Origin: Fibrobacterales bacterium
GTDB taxonomy: Bacteria > Fibrobacterota > Fibrobacteria > Fibrobacterales > CADBQJ01
Reading direction: 5' to 3'
NCBI GenBank assembly: GCA_017650365.1
Contig: JAGCEZ010000084.1
Span: 38,202 to 102,201, forward strand
DNA: 64,000 nt
Shown here: positions 55,513 to 64,000 of the stretch, one piece after another
Numbering within the stretch: the stretch's first letter is position 1
Layout: every line of letters begins with the position of its first letter
Notes under the pieces: model-generated
What the model was told of the DNA's origin: nothing
Database searches by the model: none
Seen by the model: the letters and a program-made list of their open reading frames with translations, nothing else
Translations under genes and position numbers: made by a program

Positions 55513-55938
55513 TTAGGCCTTCTCGCCTGGAATCATGAAGAAGCGTTCCCAGTTCTCGCGGTATTCCGGGAGATCGTACTCTTTGGGATTCACCCACCAC
55601 GAACCTTTCCCATCCAGGTGCGCGGCCTTCTTGACTTCTTCCGGAGACAGCAAGTACGTCACATATTCCTTGTCTGTCTTGCGCACCACCACGCACCAAA
55701 CATCACCCATCACCTTATCCAGGCTCGGCCCCAGTGGAATCGGGCAGCGCTTGGAAAACGACTTCACCTGCACACCTAGAAAGCCCTTGCCATCCGGCAT
55801 GTAGGCAACGATGTCGATCCCTTTTGCGTTCCGTGCCGTCGGCATCACGTTCCAACCCATCTTGGACAGTTGGAAGCAGACGTAATACATCCCCACGTTG
55901 CCGACGATCTGGGAAGGAAGTTTGGATGAAGTTTTCAT
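55513..55938 (-). CDS. Small PD-(D/E)XK restriction-endonuclease-fold protein
   Basis: IVGNVGMYYVCFQLSKMGWNV...KGIDIVAY...GVQVKS, a D...QxK variant of the nuclease motif. Confidence 0.6.
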   Translation of the reverse strand: MKTSSKLPSQIVGNVGMYYVCFQLSKMGWNVMPTARNAKGIDIVAYMPDGKGFLGVQVKSFSKRCPIPLGPSLDKVMGDVWCVVVRKTDKEYVTYLLSPEEVKKAAHLDGKGSWWVNPKEYDLPEYRENWERFFMIPGEKA

Positions 55939-55983: not shown

Positions 55984-56709
55984 CTACACATCCGGCATAG
56001 CTTGGCAAATTTTGCCGTTAAGCAACTTGCCATTTGCAGCTTTGGAACGTTTAACGCCATCAAAGCCCCACGCGCCCCATTGCTTGAAAAAGAAGGCCGA
56101 CTTGTATCTTGCCGCCTGTTTCTGGATGCTCTCGACCCAGGCTTTCTGCATCGGCCTCGCCTTGGGACCGCTTTCGCCACCCACAATCACCCAATGGATG
56201 TCTTTGAGATTCAGCCTACCCAAATCGCTTAGCAACGGTTCGCAAGACAAGAAGCGGACCCGGGCCTTGATTCGCCGCAGGACATCGATGCGCTCTTTGC
56301 GAGCTGCGCTTTCAACCGTCACGCCGATCCAAACATTATCGGGAACTTTCCGGGTTACGAAATACCGTTCCATCCGTTCGGCACGTTTGGTGAGAATCTG
56401 GAAACGGTGGTTCTCGGCATTCCGAATGGTGTTGAAAACCTTGTCGACAAAGGCAAACGGAACCTTTTCGTTGAACAGGTCGCTCATAGAGCACACGAAT
56501 ATATTGCTCGGCGATTTCCAATGAAGCGGTTCTTCCAAAGACTCCTCATGCAAGGCCACGGAAAAGCCATTCTTGTATTTCTCCAGCCCCATGCTTTGCA
56601 GGCGCCGCGACATCATCGCCGCATAGCAGTTGGCGCAACCTTCTGACATCCGGTCGCAACCCGTAACCGGATTCCACGTCTGGTCAGTCCATTCGATCTT
56701 TGTCTTCAT
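55984..56709 (-). CDS. DUF5131 (phage Gp37/Gp68) family protein with three-Cys motif
   Basis: IEWTDQTWNPVTGCDRMSEGCANCYA (Cx6Cx2C), FVCSMSDLF, FQILTKR, FLSCEPLL, WVIVGGESG, FFFKQWG. Confidence 0.92.
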   Translation of the reverse strand: MKTKIEWTDQTWNPVTGCDRMSEGCANCYAAMMSRRLQSMGLEKYKNGFSVALHEESLEEPLHWKSPSNIFVCSMSDLFNEKVPFAFVDKVFNTIRNAENHRFQILTKRAERMERYFVTRKVPDNVWIGVTVESAARKERIDVLRRIKARVRFLSCEPLLSDLGRLNLKDIHWVIVGGESGPKARPMQKAWVESIQKQAARYKSAFFFKQWGAWGFDGVKRSKAANGKLLNGKICQAMPDV

Positions 56710-57809
56710 TTTACCAGCTCAATCGCGACTTTTGCGTTCTTTCCGTCGCTCAAGTAAAACGTATTCTTCCTAATTCTCGTGTCGGCGTTATATGCTCTAA
56801 TCCGGATTAGGTCTTGTTCGGCAAAAAACTTCAGCACGTCCGTTCCGTGGCGCGGAAGAGAGCCGTTCTCATAGCAAAAATCACGGATATCGACATTCGT
56901 TTTTGGTCCATCTTCCAAGAACTCCCTCATCTTGATTTTCAAAGAATCGCTGAAAAACTCCTGTAGAAACGATGTTTGTCCGACGTTGCATTTGACAAAG
57001 CCAGCGCCTTCGTCCTCGTCGATTTCCCACTTTGTTTCAACGAATTTCTCCAGCCCTTTGCGATTGCTCGAGCAATAAATCAAGCAATTATGTCCACGGC
57101 CGGCATCATCCTGGATGATGAAGCTGTCGACGAATACACCCAACTCTTTGCGGAGCCTTTCAAGGATGTTTCTAGCGAAGTCGACATCGTTCTCAATCAC
57201 AGAAACATCTGGCACAAGAATGAAATCGTCAAGGAATGTTCGAATCGCATTAATCATTCTGCCCTTGAATCTGTATATGAAGGATACAGGCAAGAACAGT
57301 AGCACTTCGGTATCGCCGTCTTTTAGGATTTCCTTCATATCTGCCAATCGAATGCCACTATATCCAAAAGGGTCGATGAAGAAGAATCGCTTGAAGTAGT
57401 TATGGGTCTTGTGTTTGCTAAGAATTTGTGGCAACAAGTCCGCGTAGTCTTTGTTTTGGACGTCCGTCTCCACCCAATTGATCTTCTGGATTCTATGGTT
57501 GTCAACGAACGCTTTTAGCTTCCGATGATTTTCCGGATCACTTTCGTTAAAACAGATCTTTACCTGCAACCCTTCCAAATATGTTTGAGCCAAGTAGTCC
57601 AATAATATCATCGGGCTACCCGGATTCCCACGCTCATCTTTTCCGGGACCAGCGAACAAGTCGGCGATATAGACGGTGTCCTTTTTGTTCCTGTTCCACG
57701 ATTGCTGATAAGCTTTGCTCAATACCTTAAGATACCTGGCGATATACGCCCTATAGACGCCAAGCTTAGCCTTGGTCGAATCATTGAACTCATCGAAGAA
57801 GTCGGACAT
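56706..57809 (-). CDS. Three-Cys-motif partner protein (TcmP-like, methyltransferase-like fold)
   Basis: STKAKLGVYRAYI, YIADLFAGPG...GSP, FFFIDPFGYS; stop overlaps the DUF5131 start; SD-like GGAG upstream of the ATG at 57809. Confidence 0.85.
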   Translation of the reverse strand: MSDFFDEFNDSTKAKLGVYRAYIARYLKVLSKAYQQSWNRNKKDTVYIADLFAGPGKDERGNPGSPMILLDYLAQTYLEGLQVKICFNESDPENHRKLKAFVDNHRIQKINWVETDVQNKDYADLLPQILSKHKTHNYFKRFFFIDPFGYSGIRLADMKEILKDGDTEVLLFLPVSFIYRFKGRMINAIRTFLDDFILVPDVSVIENDVDFARNILERLRKELGVFVDSFIIQDDAGRGHNCLIYCSSNRKGLEKFVETKWEIDEDEGAGFVKCNVGQTSFLQEFFSDSLKIKMREFLEDGPKTNVDIRDFCYENGSLPRHGTDVLKFFAEQDLIRIRAYNADTRIRKNTFYLSDGKNAKVAIELVK

Positions 57810-57833
57810 ACACCCACTCCCACATTGCAATTG

Positions 57834-58574
57834 CTAATCCTTCACGCAACGGACGGAAGCGCCGTATTGCACATTTTCGGGGGAGCAGCAATCGGCCCAT
57901 CCAATGTTCCCTTGTAACAAATCGATGCCAAATGTCTCTGCTTGTGGTCCAATCATTCTAGCCCATTTTTGAATTTGAGGGTCATCCGGCACCCATTCTT
58001 CGGTGGCAGACCACCACACCGTGTACCCGCCAAGGTATGCGAATTTGCCGCCATCCCAATCGACGTGAATGCCGCCAGGAAGCGCGTTGAACCCAAAAGA
58101 ATTCTCCCCTACATAATTTTCCCAGCCATCTTTCGATGCCAGCGCCGTTGCCTCTGCCTCGTGATCTTCTTCCCAAATCTTGCAGCTGCCGTCCAAATAC
58201 TTCTCTTTGCACTCCTGCTTGGGCAAAGATTGCCGCACGAATTTCTCAAGCGCCATCCATTCTTCGGCCGTGGGTAGATGCCAGCCTTCGGGACAGCTCT
58301 CCTTCGCGACCTTCCAAATGTAAAGGCCGCCGTACTTTTCGCAATTCGCCAGCGAATCGCCGTAGCACCACTTTTCGCCAAGAGAGAGTTCCGACTTGCT
58401 CTCCAGGGGCTTGCCATAGTTCAAGTTCTGCGCCATCCAGACCTGGTCGCCAATCTTAACGGTCTTGTAGACTTGCCCGTCCCGCGGGTCCTTGAACGAG
58501 CCATCGCCGGAGTCATCGGAGCAACCAAGCGCCGCAACGACACAAAGCGCAATCAGCAGCAATTTCCCGTTCAT
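57834..58574 (-). CDS. FISUMP (Fibrobacter succinogenes major paralogous) domain lipoprotein
   Basis: Lipobox AALGC; FKDPRDGQVYKTVKIGDQVWMAQNLNY, GGLY.W, CPEGWHLPT, GFNALPGG, SVRCVKD. Confidence 0.9.
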   Translation of the reverse strand: MNGKLLLIALCVVAALGCSDDSGDGSFKDPRDGQVYKTVKIGDQVWMAQNLNYGKPLESKSELSLGEKWCYGDSLANCEKYGGLYIWKVAKESCPEGWHLPTAEEWMALEKFVRQSLPKQECKEKYLDGSCKIWEEDHEAEATALASKDGWENYVGENSFGFNALPGGIHVDWDGGKFAYLGGYTVWWSATEEWVPDDPQIQKWARMIGPQAETFGIDLLQGNIGWADCCSPENVQYGASVRCVKD

Positions 58575-59326
58575 TTCTTTTCCTTCTGTTCCTTCACGCA
58601 ACGGACGGAAGCTCCTATGCCTTTGAGCGCCAGCCAATATTCAAGTTTCCCGCTCTTGCGAAGTAGTACTCGGACATTTACGCTATCGCCACCAGCGCGG
58701 CTAGAAGTCCACCACATCCCGTGGCTGCCTTTTCCTAAAAACTCGACCTGGGTCCCAGCCACCCCTCTTATGCCTCCAGGAAGAAACCCGTATGCATTCT
58801 CCGATACAAATCCACCCCAAGCCTCGGTCTTCATCATTGTGCCCACTACGTCGAAGAACTCTTCCGTTCCTTCGAACGATGTCCAGCGGCGTCCATGGCA
58901 GAACATTCTTTCAATGGCAGCACTGTCGCCAAAAGACGAAGGCATTCCCGGACCACAGAGCGCTGTAACGCCCATCAAATACTCTTGTTCTAGATTGTTC
59001 CAATCTTTTTCAGTCGGCAGGCGCCATCCATCAGGACAACTTTGTTTGGCGGCCTCCCATGTATAGAGCCCTCCATATTTGCGGCAATTTTTCAGATCGT
59101 CATCATAACAGTATTTCTGCCCTCTCCCCAATTTAAGGCGCTCTCCCTCCACCGGCGTTCCATAGTTCAAGTTTTGTTCCATCCAAACGAGGTTTGAGAA
59201 AGGATGGAGAGTTGAGATGCTGTAAATCTGGCCATCGCGGGAATCCTTGAGTGTTTCAGGACCATCTTGGGCCAAGACAGCCGTAGCGATGACCATAAGC
59301 GCAATCAGTGCGAGTTTCTTGTTCAT
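58571..59326 (-). CDS. FISUMP domain secreted protein
   Basis: Signal peptide; LKDSRDGQIY, WMEQNLNY, GGLYTWEAAKQSCPDGWRLPT, SVRCVKE. Confidence 0.9.
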   Translation of the reverse strand: MNKKLALIALMVIATAVLAQDGPETLKDSRDGQIYSISTLHPFSNLVWMEQNLNYGTPVEGERLKLGRGQKYCYDDDLKNCRKYGGLYTWEAAKQSCPDGWRLPTEKDWNNLEQEYLMGVTALCGPGMPSSFGDSAAIERMFCHGRRWTSFEGTEEFFDVVGTMMKTEAWGGFVSENAYGFLPGGIRGVAGTQVEFLGKGSHGMWWTSSRAGGDSVNVRVLLRKSGKLEYWLALKGIGASVRCVKEQKEKK

Positions 59327-59343
59327 CTTTTTCCCCTTCGGTC

Positions 59344-59679
59344 TCAATATCCCGAGTAGCGGCAATCGTAACGGCCCTTGACGTAGGCGTTATAGAAACG
59401 CCCCTTCGAAGACGCCTGGAGCCACGAACTGAAGACCCGTTCCGGGACGCCGCAGTAGTGATAATAGGTGCCGTTCAACGAAACCAGCAGATACCGCGCA
59501 TCGTCCTGGTAGCAGATACGGTCCACGAACGAACTGCTAACCCAAGAGCATCGGAACTCGTCCAAATCAACGACGCCGCGATACTTCACATAGACCGATT
59601 CCGCGCGCGCAAGAACCGGCAGAAGCGCCAGGCCAAGCACAATGAAGGGCAAGAACTTGCGATTGCGTTTCAGAGACAT
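59344..59679 (-). CDS. KTSC-domain protein with N-terminal signal peptide
   Basis: SSFVDRICY...LLVSLNGTYYHYCGVPERVFSSWLQASSKGRFYNAYVKGRY. Confidence 0.8.
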   Translation of the reverse strand: MSLKRNRKFLPFIVLGLALLPVLARAESVYVKYRGVVDLDEFRCSWVSSSFVDRICYQDDARYLLVSLNGTYYHYCGVPERVFSSWLQASSKGRFYNAYVKGRYDCRYSGY

Positions 59680-60700: not shown

Positions 60701-62314
60701 ATGATGGCGAGGAAAAAAGCCGCAGAAGAAACGATCAATTTGGACGCGATTCTCTTCAAGTGCCGCGACATCTTGCGCCAGGCGCGCAATTCGGGTTCGT
60801 TCTTCGAAAAGCGCGACATGATGCTTACACTCGTCTTTCTGCGTTTCATCGGGGAAAAGTACGAGAACGGCGTCGAGAACCTCCGCAAGGACCTCATTGC
60901 GCAGGGGCTCGACCCGAACGACGAACAGATTGTCTCCGCATTCTTCGACGACGCCACGTTTACCGACGGCACGTACAATCTGCCGCCCGAAGCGCGCTGG
61001 GAGACAATCATCAACACGCCGGCTCCTCGCTTGAACGCCGCGCTTGACATGGCGCTGCACAGCATCGCGGCGAGCAACAAACAGCTCAAGGGCTGTTTTA
61101 TCGAGGGAACTTTCACTCAACGCAACCTTGCGCCAAACGACATCAAGAAGCTCGTCGACGAAATCAACAAAATCAGCTACCGGGCTTTCGGCGAGGAAAG
61201 GGACCTGATTGGCCGGGTCTACGAGTATTTCCTCAAGGAGTTCGCCGTCAACGCGACCAAGGAAGAGGGAGAATTCTACACACCGCATGATGTGGTTCAG
61301 CTGATTGCGGCGATAATCGAACCTTTCGACGGCACGCTCTACGACCCTTGCTGCGGCTCGGGCGGCATGTTCATCCAGAGCGCCGACCTGGTGAAGTCAA
61401 AGCAGGGCGACATCAGCAGGATTAACGTCTACGGTCAGGAGAAAGACGCAATGACCTGGCGTCTGGCGAAGATGAATCTTGCCCTGCGCGGCATCAGTCA
61501 TCACCTTGGCGAGACATATGATTCGACGTTTGTCAATGACCAGCACAAGGGAGTTTACTTCGACTACATCATGGCGAATCCGCCGTTCAACCTGAAGGGC
61601 TGGTACAACGAGAACCTGCGCCATGACGCGCGGTGGGCCGACTACGGAACGCCGCCGGAAAGCAATGCCAACTACGCCTGGATTCTCCACATGCTTTCGC
61701 ATCTGAAGCCGACGAGCGGCGTGGCGGCTTTCCTGCTTGGCAATGGCGCTCTTGATGATGAAGACGCCGTTGCCATCCGAAAGAAGCTGATACAGAACGA
61801 CAAAGTGGAAGCAATTATCATCCTGCCGCGCGAACTGTTCATCACGACGGATACCGGCGCGACAATCTGGATTTTGAACCAGAACAAAAAAGGTGGCAAA
61901 GACCATGGCAGAGAACTACGCGATCGCAAGCATGAAATACTCTTCGTGGATTTGCGCACCTGGACTGAAAATCCAATCAAAAAAGAAGGCAACAGCAAGA
62001 AGAGATTTCAGCTGATCACTGAACAAATCGAACGAGTCGCTGCCATCTACCACAAGTGGCAAGCGAAAGGCACGAATGGCGCAGATTACGCCGTGCCGGA
62101 ACTCTACCGCAGCGTCAACATCTCCGAAATCGAAGAAAACGGCTGGAGCCTCGTCCCCAGCAAGTATATCGAATTCATCGACCACGACCTGGAAATCGAC
62201 TTCCCTGCGGAAATGAAACGAATCCGCAAGGAGATGCAGGAAGTCCTGAAACAGGAAAAGAAGTCGCAGAAGATGCTCGAAGACGCCTTCAAGGGTATCG
62301 GTTATGGAATATAG
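60701..62314 (+). CDS. hsdM: Type I restriction-modification methyltransferase subunit
   Basis: HsdM N-terminal domain, GEFYTP, YDPCCGSGGMF, YGQE, NPPFN catalytic motif. Confidence 0.95.
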   Translation: MMARKKAAEETINLDAILFKCRDILRQARNSGSFFEKRDMMLTLVFLRFIGEKYENGVENLRKDLIAQGLDPNDEQIVSAFFDDATFTDGTYNLPPEARWETIINTPAPRLNAALDMALHSIAASNKQLKGCFIEGTFTQRNLAPNDIKKLVDEINKISYRAFGEERDLIGRVYEYFLKEFAVNATKEEGEFYTPHDVVQLIAAIIEPFDGTLYDPCCGSGGMFIQSADLVKSKQGDISRINVYGQEKDAMTWRLAKMNLALRGISHHLGETYDSTFVNDQHKGVYFDYIMANPPFNLKGWYNENLRHDARWADYGTPPESNANYAWILHMLSHLKPTSGVAAFLLGNGALDDEDAVAIRKKLIQNDKVEAIIILPRELFITTDTGATIWILNQNKKGGKDHGRELRDRKHEILFVDLRTWTENPIKKEGNSKKRFQLITEQIERVAAIYHKWQAKGTNGADYAVPELYRSVNISEIEENGWSLVPSKYIEFIDHDLEIDFPAEMKRIRKEMQEVLKQEKKSQKMLEDAFKGIGYGI

Positions 62315-63428
62315 GCTTGGCGAACTCATCCATCATGAAGATGAGCGCAATGAACGCGGCGCGTTTTCGTTAAGCGATGTCCGAGGCATATCCATCAAGA
62401 AAGAATTCATAGAGACGAAAGCGGATATGGAGGGCGTCTCATTGCGTCCGTATATTCTTGTTCGCCCCGATAATTTCGCCTATGTCACCGTCACTTCGCG
62501 AAATGGCGAGAAAATAACGATTGCGCACAATGACACGCAAAACACCTACATCGTGTCCTCGTCTTATGAGGTATTCAGCGTCGCACGAAATGATTTGCTA
62601 AACCCATGGTATCTCTTCATGTATTTCAACAGGCCGGAATTCGACCGGTATGCGAGATTCCATTCGTTTGGCTCTGCCAGAGAAACATTCGACTGGCAAG
62701 ACATGTGCGACATTGATATCGAACTTCCTCCGCTTTCGGTCCAGCAGAAATATGTCGACATTTATTTGGGCTTGGTTGCCAACCAGAAGAGCTATGAGCG
62801 AGGGCTGGAGGACTTGAAGTTCGTCTGCGACGGATATATCGAAGATCTGCGCCGCAAAATGCCGTGCGAGAAGATTGGGCCATATATTGAGCCCAAAGAA
62901 GAGCGAAATTCAGATCTCAGAATCAAACTTGCTCAAGGCATCACCAACGAGAAACGATTTGATGCGCCCAAGCAGGTCGCTGAAGCGGCCGAAAATGCGA
63001 AGATTGTTCGCACAGGACAATTCGCTTACAATCAAGCGACAACAAGGAATGGTGAAAAAATTTCCATCGCATTCCGTGACGGAGAAGATTGTGTTGTCTC
63101 TTCCGCTTACCAAGTGTTTGAAATCAAGGACAAGAAAAGACTTCTGCCCGAGTATTTGATGATGTGGTATAAGCGCCCGGAATTTGACCGCTATGTGCGA
63201 TACATGTCAAAAGGTAGCGCGCATGAATTTTTCAAATACTCGGATATGGAAAACGTCAGCATCCCGATCCCGGGGATTGGTGTACAGAGAGCTATTGCTG
63301 ACATCTATAACGCCTGCACGGTTCGCGAGCGCATCAACAAACAGCTCAAGGCGCAAATCAAGGACGTTTGCCCGGTTTTGATTAAAGGCTCGTTGGAGGA
63401 AGGCGGCAATCCGGAATGCGTTCAATGA
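62304..63428 (+). CDS. hsdS: Type I restriction-modification specificity subunit
   Basis: Two homologous TRD halves (RNGEKI..A, VSS.Y.VF, RPEFDRY.R...GS) each followed by LPP/IP..VQ helices; overlaps the hsdM end. Confidence 0.92.
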   Translation: MEYRLGELIHHEDERNERGAFSLSDVRGISIKKEFIETKADMEGVSLRPYILVRPDNFAYVTVTSRNGEKITIAHNDTQNTYIVSSSYEVFSVARNDLLNPWYLFMYFNRPEFDRYARFHSFGSARETFDWQDMCDIDIELPPLSVQQKYVDIYLGLVANQKSYERGLEDLKFVCDGYIEDLRRKMPCEKIGPYIEPKEERNSDLRIKLAQGITNEKRFDAPKQVAEAAENAKIVRTGQFAYNQATTRNGEKISIAFRDGEDCVVSSAYQVFEIKDKKRLLPEYLMMWYKRPEFDRYVRYMSKGSAHEFFKYSDMENVSIPIPGIGVQRAIADIYNACTVRERINKQLKAQIKDVCPVLIKGSLEEGGNPECVQ

Positions 63429-64000
63429 AGTCATATAGCCATTTCATGAATAAGATAAGCTCAGAGGATATTTTCGAAGGGCTGTTAGGACATGGTCTGT
63501 TTTCAGAGAAACTGCCACCGATTTTTTCCTCAGAATCTTTCTACAAATATTGTCGCGAAAATCCAAAGGCCTTTCCCGAAGACCGTGCGTGTCCATATGT
63601 TTTCTACGAAAGCATGCGTAATACAAATGTTCCCCGCCAATTAGGCATCCCGAACCCAATGGCATACCAACAGCTATGCCGCTGCATCTCGGCAAATTGG
63701 AGCAAAATACAGAACCACTTCGAAAAAGCAACTTGCAATGACACACATATTGTTAGTCGCATTCATCTGCGGAAAATGAACAACACAAAAATTCTGTACC
63801 GAATGAACTATGACAACTGGAAGACCGACGGCAATCCTATTCAGGATTTGCTTATAGGGCATAGATATGTGGTTCATGCCGATATTGCGACATGCTTTCC
63901 CAGCATATACACCCACACCATTCCATGGGCTCTAGTTGGAAAGGAAACGGCGAAGAAAAACACGCATTGCCGCGGGAAAAACAAAACGTGGTATAACGAA
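63425..64000 (+). CDS. Reverse transcriptase of the Abi/UG (defence-associated) class, N-terminal 192 aa (runs off window)
   Basis: Manual translation from the ATG overlapping the hsdS stop: MKSYSHFMNK...GLFSEKLPPIF...PRQLGIPNPMAY...SRIHLRK...YVVHADIATCFPSIYTHTIPWALVGK. No stop to the window end. Confidence 0.85.
   Translation, partial: MKSYSHFMNKISSEDIFEGLLGHGLFSEKLPPIFSSESFYKYCRENPKAFPEDRACPYVFYESMRNTNVPRQLGIPNPMAYQQLCRCISANWSKIQNHFEKATCNDTHIVSRIHLRKMNNTKILYRMNYDNWKTDGNPIQDLLIGHRYVVHADIATCFPSIYTHTIPWALVGKETAKKNTHCRGKNKTWYNE

What the first reader, a model, noticed from the sequence alone, without database searches (positions are those of the whole stretch)
60701..64000. Defence-type reverse transcriptase translationally coupled to hsdS inside a type I RM operon
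Seen: the ATG at 63425 overlaps the hsdS stop (ATGA) and opens a frame that is uninterrupted to 64000; the ORF track misses it. It encodes GLFSEKLPPIF, RQLGIPNPMAY and ADIATCFPSIYTHTIPWAL. Known: the D-I-x-x-x-F/Y-x-S-I-Y-T-H-(S/T)-I-x-W signature belongs to Abi/UG-class RTs (AbiA and DRT types), not group II intron, DGR or retron RTs. The N-terminus recalls UG15/DRT4-like proteins (from memory, unverified). The RT occupies the position where hsdR would often follow, and there is no room for an upstream ncRNA. Inference: a composite RM+RT unit, either a layered defence operon or an RT that guards or is triggered by HsdMS (for example by sensing anti-RM proteins).
Basis: partly seen in the sequence, partly recalled or inferred. 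Interest (0 to 1): 0.8.

Follow-up and report, generated by a model that had tools for sequence, protein, structure and literature searches.

The report
DRT4 reverse transcriptase inside restriction operon
The open frame is a complete, intact copy of a known anti-phage enzyme (DRT4/UG15) carried as swappable cargo in the hsdS-hsdR gap of a complete type I restriction-modification operon; this is a clear example of a published pattern, not a new kind of system.

Summary
ATG 63425 overlaps the hsdS stop (ATGA), and the frame runs past the window end to 64942 (window-equivalent), giving a 505-aa protein. It is a full-length DRT4/UG15 defence reverse transcriptase (PADLOC Drt4, E 5e-204; Foldseek TM 0.8 to solved DRT4 structures). 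The catalytic DD, the priming Tyr and the RNase His/Asp are all conserved. An intact hsdR starts 12 nt after the RT stop, so the order is hsdM-hsdS-DRT4-hsdR, ending at a strong terminator.

Comparative data argue for cargo rather than an RT-specific partnership:
- Of 80 species-level homologues, 59 are not next to type I R-M at all; 18 sit in the hsdS-hsdR position.
- The R-M operons holding the RT belong to at least 6 lineages (HsdR 20-38% identical to each other), so capture was repeated.
- In 78 sister operons of this R-M lineage the slot is empty in 56 and holds unrelated defence genes in 22 (KAP NTPase, TIR, kinase, Fic).
- On the HsdR tree the RT-bearing operons are scattered. One carries a duplicated hsdS 3' remnant in front of the RT, which points to exchange by recombination.

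The RT most likely acts on its own and is co-transcribed with the R-M genes. A PrrC-like guard role is neither supported nor excluded. Novelty: new member of a known kind.

The parts
60704..62314 (+). hsdM, type I R-M methyltransferase (536 aa from ATG 60704; the longest ORF starts at GTG 60671)
   Evidence: Pfam HsdM_N + N6_Mtase, E 4e-88; PADLOC MTase_I, E 1e-100. The NPPF motif is present. The start follows the public gene call. GC3 is 0.72.
62304..63428 (+). hsdS, specificity subunit (374 aa); overlaps the hsdM 3' end by 11 nt
   Evidence: PADLOC Specificity_I, E 1e-151; Pfam Methylase_S in two stretches. GC3 is 0.56, a sharp step down from hsdM.
63330..63428 (+). Conserved hsdS 3' end (...INKQLKAQIKDVCPVLIKGSLEEGG...), the likely left homology arm for cargo exchange
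   Evidence: The same peptide ends hsdS directly upstream of the RT in L008, L012, L173 and L174. In L176 it survives as a duplicated remnant just upstream of the RT, behind other cargo.
63425..63428 (+). ATGA overlap of the hsdS stop and the RT start (tight, probably translationally coupled junction)
   Evidence: Read directly from the sequence. Where an hsdS stop directly precedes the RT in the other R-M-linked loci, the hsdS-to-RT spacing is -8 to +14 nt.
63425..64000 (+). 5' 576 nt (192 codons) of the DRT4/UG15 reverse-transcriptase gene. The gene continues beyond the window to 64942 (window-equivalent; contig C126 101626-103143), 505 aa. It is followed by hsdR at 64955-68293 and a 19-bp hairpin terminator at 68301-68341 (all window-equivalent).
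   Evidence: PADLOC Drt4 PDLC02178, E 5e-204. PDB DRT4/UG15, E 1e-53. AF2 pLDDT 84.7; Foldseek TM 0.79-0.81 to 9l9s/9vdo. In P0001 numbering, Y132, H167, D197, D244 and D245 are conserved. hsdR: Pfam HSDR_N, SWI2_SNF2, T1RH-like_C; PADLOC REase_I, E 3e-236. Terminator: dG -43.7 kcal/mol, z -7.4.

Best explanation
The frame encodes an intact DRT4 (UG15) class 1 UG/Abi reverse-transcriptase-like enzyme. It sits as exchangeable cargo in the hsdS-hsdR slot of a complete type I R-M operon (hsdM-hsdS-DRT4-hsdR), on a horizontally acquired low-GC defence island in a roughly 68% GC host.

Shown here: the gene's identity, its integrity, conservation of all known catalytic residues, the operon layout, and the fact that the slot is variable.

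Inferred:
(1) The four genes are transcribed as one unit, with RT translation tightly coupled to hsdS. This gives two layers of defence under common control: R-M cuts unmodified DNA at entry, and DRT4 acts as an abortive-infection backstop.
(2) The RT works as E. coli DRT4 does: a hexamer that makes untemplated ssDNA primed on its own tyrosine (Y132 here). When a phage replication protein such as an SSB engages that ssDNA, it switches on an RNase site (H167/D197) and/or ssDNA accumulates, and this stops the infected cell. No HsdMS is needed.
(3) The RT reached this position by homologous recombination between related R-M operons, using the conserved hsdS 3' end and the hsdR 5' end as arms. In this genome, hsdS and the RT were probably imported together, later than hsdM and hsdR.
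For: Identity: PADLOC Drt4, E 5e-204, full length. PDB DRT4/UG15, E 1e-53, with Y125->Y132, H160->H167, D192->D197 and D240/D241->D244/D245. These residues are invariant in 29 homologues and, apart from His at the priming-Tyr column in 3 rows, in 79. The AF2 model (pLDDT 84.7) matches UG15/DRT4 structures best, at TM 0.79-0.81.

Operon: 4-nt overlap with hsdS; 12-nt spacer with a Shine-Dalgarno before hsdR; no promoter-like or terminator-like sites above the shuffled expectation inside the operon; a strong hairpin terminator straight after hsdR.

Autonomy: 59 of 80 species-level homologues have no type I R-M gene adjacent, and their neighbours are assorted defence genes. The L021 RT is 90% identical to the R-M-embedded L020/L038 RTs, yet it is intact with no Hsd gene detected in the 17,955 bases held for that locus, about 6.5 kb upstream and 10 kb downstream of the RT. 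E. coli DRT4 is a single-gene system triggered by phage SSB (PMC12783706; bioRxiv 10.64898/2026.10.21.760695).

Swappable slot: in 78 operons with HsdR 73-77% identical to this one, none has the RT, 56 have hsdS directly followed by hsdR, and 22 carry KAP NTPase/PDC-S49, CAP12-type TIR/PDC-S35, PD-T4-6 kinase, Fic and others. On the HsdR tree the 7 RT-bearing operons need 7 changes, against a shuffled mean of 6.8. The nearest sister operons (hsdR up to about 96% nt identical) hold other cargo or none. L176 keeps a duplicated hsdS 3' remnant in front of the RT.

Repeated capture: HsdR proteins of the different RT-linked clades are 20-38% identical to each other, while their RTs are 39-55% identical. 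One of these operons has an EcoEI-type HsdR.

Import: GC3 is hsdM 0.72, hsdS 0.56, RT 0.50 and hsdR 0.79, with the steps at the gene borders. The RT is absent from 30 relatives of the host.

Published pattern: Payne et al. 2024 (bioRxiv 10.1101/2024.01.29.577857); TgvAB (PMC11411939).
Against: No member of this roughly 505-aa DRT4 subfamily has been tested, as far as the papers I could search show. It is only about 28% identical to E. coli DRT4. It has His (Asn in most relatives) where E. coli has the primer-stacking Tyr of YxDD. It also has no counterpart of the E. coli C-terminal sensory domain (residues 508-540), so its trigger may differ. Type I R-M is by far the most frequent operonic neighbour (hsdS upstream in about 15 loci, against at most 5 for any other family), and capture was repeated in at least 6 R-M lineages. 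That could reflect selection for a functional link and not only a recombination hotspot.
Confidence: 0.8

Rival explanations
1. PrrC/Ronin-like guard. The RT is held inactive by, or senses the state of, the HsdMS complex. It fires when a phage anti-restriction protein (Ocr, ArdA, Stp-like) disables the R-M enzyme.
For: There are precedents for abortive effectors embedded in type I R-M and released by anti-restriction factors: PrrC, and Ronin (bioRxiv 10.1101/2023.04.06.535777). The RT was captured repeatedly at exactly the hsdS-hsdR junction in at least 6 R-M lineages, always co-oriented and tightly spaced. All 8 nearest relatives of this RT are in that slot. The subfamily lacks the SSB-sensing C-terminal domain of E. 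coli DRT4, so its trigger is open.
Against: PrrC is almost exclusively embedded in type I R-M and ronA is always linked to hsdMS. Here 59 of 80 homologues are unlinked. A 90%-identical RT stays intact without R-M. No residue or length feature separates linked from unlinked RTs at the known functional sites. The partner R-M families are too diverse (HsdR 20-38% identical) for one conserved protein interface. The same slot holds unrelated cargo or nothing. Cargo turnover is faster than operon divergence.
Confidence: 0.08
2. Inactive passenger. The RT is a decaying or non-functional remnant carried along in the operon.
For: His replaces the Tyr of the YxDD motif. Two homologues elsewhere (L022, L065) are split by stops.
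Against: The frame is full length and uninterrupted. All catalytic and priming residues are kept. The position before IDD varies across the whole intact subfamily (N, H, A, K, S, C, Y). The identical protein is found in six independent assemblies. The AF2 model is confident.
Confidence: 0.04
3. Assembly artefact. A low-GC fragment from another organism was wrongly joined to a high-GC contig, so the operon context is unreliable.
For: GC falls from about 0.70 to about 0.50 near window position 55800. The genome is a 126-contig assembly.
Against: Two other independently assembled contigs (34 kb and 16 kb) carry the same junction with the host-side NadA and acyltransferase genes and the same island order. 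The operon itself lies wholly inside the low-GC part, so its internal order does not depend on that junction.
Confidence: 0.01

Closest known systems
DRT4 / UG15 of E. coli (Gao et al. 2020; Mestre et al. 2022, PMC9226505; Wang et al., PMC12783706; PDB 9vdo, 9l9s, 21ou)
   Same: Same family by PADLOC profile, sequence and predicted fold: an RT-like palm plus a C-terminal alpha-helical repeat domain. The priming Tyr, the catalytic DD and the RNase His/Asp are conserved. It is a single polypeptide with no ncRNA.
   Different: Only about 28% identical, and 505 aa against 540. It has no counterpart of the sensory C-terminal domain (residues 508-540). It has His (Asn in most of the subfamily) in place of the Tyr of YxDD. 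It belongs to a separate PADLOC sub-model (PDLC02178), none of whose members I could find tested. Here it is embedded in an R-M operon and is not a stand-alone gene.
Defence genes genetically embedded in type I R-M, BREX, DISARM and Hma operons (Payne et al. 2024, bioRxiv 10.1101/2024.01.29.577857); TgvAB in the Vibrio cholerae VPI-2 type I R-M operon (PMC11411939)
   Same: A co-oriented defence gene nested in a complete type I R-M operon (between hsdS and hsdR here). Sister operons carry other cargo, including the PDC-S35 and PDC-S49 families that were defined by such embedding.
   Different: The cargo here is DRT4. I found no statement in the searchable text or supplements of that paper that DRT4 is embedded in type I R-M; only a single DRT type III instance is mentioned.
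PrrC anticodon nuclease in EcoprrI, and Ronin (RonA with HsdMS)
   Same: An abortive-infection effector encoded inside a type I R-M gene cluster.
   Different: PrrC is almost exclusively embedded in type I R-M and ronA is always linked to hsdS/hsdM genes, and both effectors are held in check by the Hsd proteins. This RT family is mostly found without R-M, and its characterised relative is triggered by phage SSB.
AbiK, Abi-P2 and DRT6 (other class 1 UG/Abi polymerases)
   Same: Protein-primed, template-independent polymerase fold with an alpha-repeat domain (Foldseek TM 0.55-0.78).
   Different: Weaker profile and fold matches than to DRT4: PADLOC Drt6 303 bits and AbiK 150 bits, against Drt4 677 bits.

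Membership tests
DRT4 / UG15 (class 1 UG/Abi RT) | Full-length match to the family profile, better than to sister groups | tested here: met
   PADLOC Drt4 PDLC02178: 677 bits, E 5e-204, model positions 2-504 of 506. Next groups: Drt6 303 bits, UG30 208 bits, AbiK 150 bits.
DRT4 / UG15 (class 1 UG/Abi RT) | Catalytic Asp pair of the palm (D240/D241 in E. coli DRT4) | tested here: met
   D244/D245 (P0001 numbering) align to D240/D241. They are invariant in 79 homologues.
DRT4 / UG15 (class 1 UG/Abi RT) | Tyr of the YxDD motif (Y238, which stacks on the primer 3' base) | tested here: not met
   It is His here. In 79 subfamily members the position is N 58, H 6, A 6, K 3, C 2, S 2, Y 2. This is a subfamily trait, not a lesion.
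DRT4 / UG15 (class 1 UG/Abi RT) | Priming tyrosine (Y125) | tested here: met
   Y132 in M-N-Y-D-N aligns to Y125. It is Tyr in 76 of 79 homologues.
DRT4 / UG15 (class 1 UG/Abi RT) | RNase His/Asp pair (H160, D192) | tested here: met
   H167 and D197 align to them and are invariant in 79 homologues.
DRT4 / UG15 (class 1 UG/Abi RT) | C-terminal alpha-helical repeat domain in place of the thumb | tested here: met
   The AF2 model is mostly helical over residues 291-496, with high pLDDT. Foldseek TM is 0.79-0.81 over the whole chain to 9l9s/9vdo.
DRT4 / UG15 (class 1 UG/Abi RT) | Flexible sensory C-terminal domain (E. coli residues 508-540) needed for SSB-dependent activation | tested here: not met
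   The alignment envelope ends near residue 506 of 540 while the query ends at 508. The domain is defined in bioRxiv 10.64898/2026.10.21.760695. Its absence is inferred from lengths and alignment, not from a structure of the complex.
DRT4 / UG15 (class 1 UG/Abi RT) | Single-gene system without ncRNA | tested here: met
   A 4-nt overlap upstream and a 12-nt spacer downstream leave no room for an RNA gene. No credible Rfam match in the operon. Most homologues stand among unrelated neighbours.
DRT4 / UG15 (class 1 UG/Abi RT) | Anti-phage activity that depends on polymerase catalysis | not testable with these tools
   Needs plaque assays with the wild-type gene and D244A/D245A and Y132F mutants.
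Embedded defence cargo in a type I R-M operon | Nested between genes of a complete type I R-M system, same orientation | tested here: met
   hsdM, hsdS and hsdR are all intact, co-oriented and tightly spaced.
Embedded defence cargo in a type I R-M operon | Slot content varies among closely related operons | tested here: met
   56 empty, 22 with other cargo and 0 with the RT among 78 sister operons. RT-bearing operons are scattered on the HsdR tree.
PrrC/Ronin-type R-M-guard effector | Near-obligate genomic linkage of the effector to hsdM/hsdS | tested here: not met
   59 of 80 species-level homologues have no adjacent type I R-M gene. A 90%-identical RT is intact without R-M.
PrrC/Ronin-type R-M-guard effector | Effector restrained by HsdMS and released by anti-restriction proteins | not testable with these tools
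   Needs co-expression, toxicity and pull-down experiments.

The most novel reading that the evidence does not exclude
The short (about 505 aa) DRT4 subfamily lacks the SSB-sensing C-terminal domain of E. coli DRT4. When it sits in the hsdS-hsdR slot it may be wired to the type I enzyme in a PrrC-like way: restrained by HsdMS (or dosed through translational coupling to hsdS) and released when a phage anti-restriction protein disables restriction. That would make it the first polymerase-type guard of an R-M system.
Probability: 0.07. Interest if true: 0.7.

Novelty: new member of a known kind. Interest (0 to 1): 0.25.

Why it matters
On the most likely reading this is a well-documented example, not a discovery. 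It shows that DRT4 is one of the interchangeable modules that circulate through the hsdS-hsdR slot of type I R-M operons. It also shows the footprints of how they move: conserved hsdS 3' and hsdR 5' arms, a duplicated hsdS remnant in one relative, and a sharp GC3 step at the borders of the hsdS-RT segment. Two points have some practical value. First, this DRT4 subfamily is untested, lacks the sensory C-terminal domain of the E. coli enzyme and varies at the Tyr of YxDD, so it is a natural comparison for the trigger and RNase-activation models published in 2025-2026. Second, the frequent R-M embedding (about a quarter of species-level loci, at least 6 independent captures) makes it a cheap test case for whether embedded abortive-infection genes are co-regulated with, or guard, the host R-M system.

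Tried and rejected
1. Retron, group II intron or DGR RT: rejected. Pfam shows only RVT_1, the PADLOC and fold matches are to DRT4/AbiK-type polymerases, and there is no Rfam match.
2. The RT replaces hsdR: rejected. An intact hsdR follows.
3. Chimeric contig: rejected through independent assemblies.
4. One ancestral R-M+RT cassette that co-diverged: rejected across clades, because HsdR is 20-38% identical between clades while the RTs are 39-55% identical, and HsdR evolves more slowly than the RT within clades. It holds only within small clades.
6. Plasmid records with this RT: one distant hit, not informative.
7. The text and supplements of Payne et al. were searched for DRT4/UG15: no mention. 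I therefore cannot say whether DRT4 embedding is tabulated in their figures.
8. A comparison of embedding rates between DRT4 sub-models through the genome search was started and dropped, because the expected sample was too small.
9. My Hsd profiles were built from this operon's relatives and missed at least one distant HsdR (L042, found through Pfam). The count of R-M-linked loci is therefore a lower bound.
Full report
OBSERVATION.
The window is C126:38202-102201 of a 111-kb contig in a 2.08-Mb, 126-contig genome of about 67% GC. Positions 63425-63428 read ATGA: TGA is the stop of a 374-aa hsdS, and the ATG opens a frame that is still open at 64000. A second in-frame ATG lies at 63416. Public gene calls (505 aa) and the N-termini of homologues (M-K-x-Y-S...) favour 63425.

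On the contig the frame ends at window-equivalent 64942 (TAA TAA). Twelve nucleotides later, behind an AAGGA Shine-Dalgarno, a 1112-aa hsdR begins. The gene order is therefore hsdM (60704-62314), hsdS (62304-63428), RT (63425-64942), hsdR (64955-68293). A perfect 19-bp GC-rich hairpin flanked by A and T runs follows at 68301-68341 (dG -43.7 kcal/mol, z -7.4). Promoter-like and terminator-like sites inside the operon do not exceed the shuffled expectation.

The identical RT and the same gene order are present on five other independently assembled metagenome contigs. Two of these also carry the high-GC host flank with NadA and an acyltransferase, so the GC drop near 55800 marks the edge of an island and is not a misassembly.

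WHAT THE GENE IS.
Pfam sees only RVT_1. PADLOC gives Drt4 (PDLC02178) at E 5e-204 over 503 of 506 positions, well ahead of Drt6, UG30, UG14 and AbiK. Against the PDB, the best sequence matches are the E. coli DRT4/UG15 structures (E 1e-53). An AlphaFold2 model built on 29 homologues (pLDDT 84.7, pTM 0.85) matches the UG15 crystal structure and the DRT4 cryo-EM structures best (TM 0.79-0.81). DRT6 (0.78), AbiK (about 0.69) and Abi-P2 follow.

Residues shown experimentally to matter in E. coli DRT4 are conserved (PMC12783706; bioRxiv 10.64898/2026.10.21.760695). Numbering is that of P0001; subtract 3 for the 505-aa protein.
- Priming Tyr125 corresponds to Y132.
- RNase His160 and Asp192 correspond to H167 and D197.
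- Catalytic Asp240/Asp241 correspond to D244/D245.
Apart from the priming Tyr, these are invariant across 79 species-level homologues; the Tyr column reads His in 3 of the 79.

Two differences from the E. coli enzyme are subfamily traits. The Tyr of YxDD is His here and Asn in most relatives. The protein also ends where the E. coli sensory C-terminal domain (residues 508-540) begins.

There is no space for an ncRNA and no credible Rfam match. This fits a protein-primed, template-independent enzyme.

The flanking HsdM, HsdS and HsdR are intact. NPPF, Walker A, DEAH and the nuclease motifs are visible in the translations, and the PADLOC/Pfam matches are strong.

IS THE RT TIED TO THE R-M SYSTEM?
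I fetched 80 species-representative loci of this DRT4 subfamily (41-60% identical) and marked Hsd genes with profiles built iteratively from the operon.
- 18 loci have the RT in the hsdS-RT-hsdR position. 13 of these are complete and 5 are cut by contig ends. One has an EcoEI-type HsdR that I found only through Pfam.
- 3 loci have the RT next to an R-M operon in another order.
- 59 loci have no adjacent type I R-M gene.

In the 59 unlinked loci, the same-strand neighbours are a mix of defence genes (TIR, AriA, PtuA, AbiL, AbiJ, Fic and others), none in more than five loci. Type I R-M is thus clearly the commonest operonic partner, but it is not an obligate one.

On the RT tree the R-M-linked state is clustered but needs 13 changes, at least 7 of them forced by well-supported branches. 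The label used on that tree was any Hsd hit within 10 kb.

HsdR proteins from the different linked clades are only 20-38% identical to each other, while their RTs are 39-55% identical. Within clades HsdR is more conserved than the RT: 71-83% against 55-62%. The RT has therefore been captured independently by at least six type I R-M lineages.

An RT 90% identical to embedded ones (L021, compared with L020 and L038) is intact, and no Hsd gene was detected in the 18 kb held for that locus. Functional residues do not differ between linked and unlinked RTs.

THE SLOT.
I fetched 80 metagenome operons whose HsdR is 73-77% identical to this one; 78 of them could be scored. None carries the RT. In 56, hsdS is directly followed by hsdR. 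In 22, the gap holds other genes: KAP-family NTPase (PADLOC PDC-S49, 8 loci), CAP12/Pycsar-type TIR (PDC-S35, 7 loci), other TIR proteins, a PD-T4-6-like kinase, Fic and others.

The five closest RT relatives that lie on long contigs (58-63% identical) are all in this slot of the same R-M family. They come with varying co-cargo: AbiJ, CAP12-TIR, PIN, and unknown proteins of about 412-416 aa.

On a tree of 87 HsdR proteins, the seven RT-bearing operons are scattered: 7 changes, against a shuffled mean of 6.8. Their nearest sisters carry other cargo or none; the L176/L153 pair is about 96% identical in hsdR DNA.

Pairwise DNA comparison shows homology through hsdM, through the conserved pieces of hsdS, and from about 12 nt upstream of the hsdR start onward. 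The centre is unrelated. In L176 the 100 nt just upstream of the RT are a second, truncated copy of the conserved hsdS 3' end. This is the footprint expected if cargo is exchanged by recombination at that conserved sequence.

In the window, third-position GC is 0.72 in hsdM, 0.56 in hsdS, 0.50 in the RT and 0.79 in hsdR, with the steps at the gene borders. I infer that hsdS and the RT were imported together, later than hsdM and hsdR.

None of 30 relatives of the host has this RT. The island also carries a TcmP-like/DUF5131 pair (PADLOC PDC-M30) and two GmrSD-like genes.

MECHANISM.
Most likely (about 0.8): an autonomous DRT4 co-transcribed with the R-M genes.
Shown: identity, integrity, operon layout and slot variability.
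Inferred from E. coli DRT4: a hexamer makes untemplated ssDNA covalently attached to Y132. A phage ssDNA-binding or replication protein that engages that ssDNA leads to RNase activation (H167/D197) and/or toxic ssDNA accumulation, and so to abortive infection.
Also inferred: R-M acts at DNA entry, and DRT4 acts as a backstop against phages that escape restriction. Because the C-terminal sensory domain is absent, the trigger recognised by this subfamily may differ.

The PrrC/Ronin-type guard idea (about 0.08) is not excluded. It is weakened by the facultative linkage, the diversity of partner R-M families, the interchangeable cargo and the fast cargo turnover.

COMPARISON WITH WHAT IS KNOWN.
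Nesting of co-oriented defence genes in type I R-M operons is published in general (Payne et al. 2024, bioRxiv 10.1101/2024.01.29.577857). Specific cases are also published: PrrC, and TgvAB in PMC11411939. DRT4 is a characterised single-gene system. I found no paper in the searchable library that names DRT4 as type I R-M cargo.

Other agents of this scan reported the same arrangement in other genomes. I read those notes after forming my view and do not count them as independent evidence.

VERDICT.
This is a new member of a known kind, of modest interest.

LIMITS.
- The count of R-M-linked loci is a lower bound, because my Hsd profiles can miss distant families.
- I did not measure the embedding rate of other single-gene systems as a quantitative baseline.

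Noticed in passing
window 62304-64000 (continuing to 64942 window-equivalent): The hsdS-RT segment has GC3 of 0.50-0.56, while hsdM has 0.72 and hsdR 0.79, with steps exactly at the gene borders. The same direction of difference, but smaller, is seen in relatives L007, L008 and L012. This suggests the hsdS+cargo centre is exchanged separately from hsdM and hsdR.
   Followed up: partly
L176:5901-6004: A truncated second copy of the conserved hsdS 3' end (peptide ...QLKEQITNICQILIKGSLEEGKK) lies directly upstream of the RT, behind CAP12-TIR and PIN cargo genes. This looks like a recombination scar marking how cargo modules are stacked.
   Followed up: partly
window 55984-57830 (- strand): A DUF5131 gene (241 aa) and an upstream 374-aa gene match PADLOC PDC-M30B and PDC-M30A (E 7e-112 and 2e-104). 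This is a candidate two-gene defence system of unknown mechanism. It was flagged separately by the first stage as TcmP+DUF5131.
   Followed up: partly
window 57834-59365 (- strand): Two tandem paralogous secreted or lipoprotein-like genes (267 and 264 aa) carry the Fibrobacter succinogenes major paralogous domain (Pfam labels from the public gene calls). They lie inside the low-GC island between defence genes.
   Followed up: no
L001:13554-17823 (window-equivalent 68352-72621, - strand, outside the window): Two adjacent GmrSD_N/DUF262 genes (780 and 637 aa; PADLOC HEC-06/Orf5-like) converge on the hsdR terminator. They may be a two-protein type IV restriction system like TgvAB.
   Followed up: no
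L001:13503-13543 (window-equivalent 68301-68341): A perfect 19-bp GC-rich hairpin flanked by A5 and T5 (dG -43.7 kcal/mol) lies between the convergent hsdR and GmrSD-like genes. It is a likely bidirectional terminator and produced spurious weak Rfam hits.
   Followed up: yes
L066, L068, L078 (RT genes): In a small clade of RTs from MAGs labelled Neisseriaceae, Cardiobacteriales and Methylotenera (all Pseudomonadota), the column of the priming tyrosine holds His (M-x-H-K-N/D-F/Y). L066 has a Tyr one residue earlier. The priming residue may have shifted in this clade.
   Followed up: no
L069:2438-5200: In a Victivallales MAG the DRT4 homologue is part of a 920-aa open frame, with about 415 extra residues at the C-terminus. 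This could be a fusion with an unknown domain or a read-through of two genes.
   Followed up: no
L022:9995-11497 and L065:10001-11509: The DRT4 homologues in a Dialister and a Fusobacterium genome are each split into two frames (about 371-386 aa plus about 113 aa). They are probably recent pseudogenes or sequencing frameshifts.
   Followed up: no
L008:7198-8868 and L066:2390-3451: YhcG/DUF1016 PD-(D/E)xK nuclease genes sit between hsdM and hsdS in two RT-bearing operons; L008 has one full copy and one truncated copy. This is a second cargo slot in the same operons.
   Followed up: no
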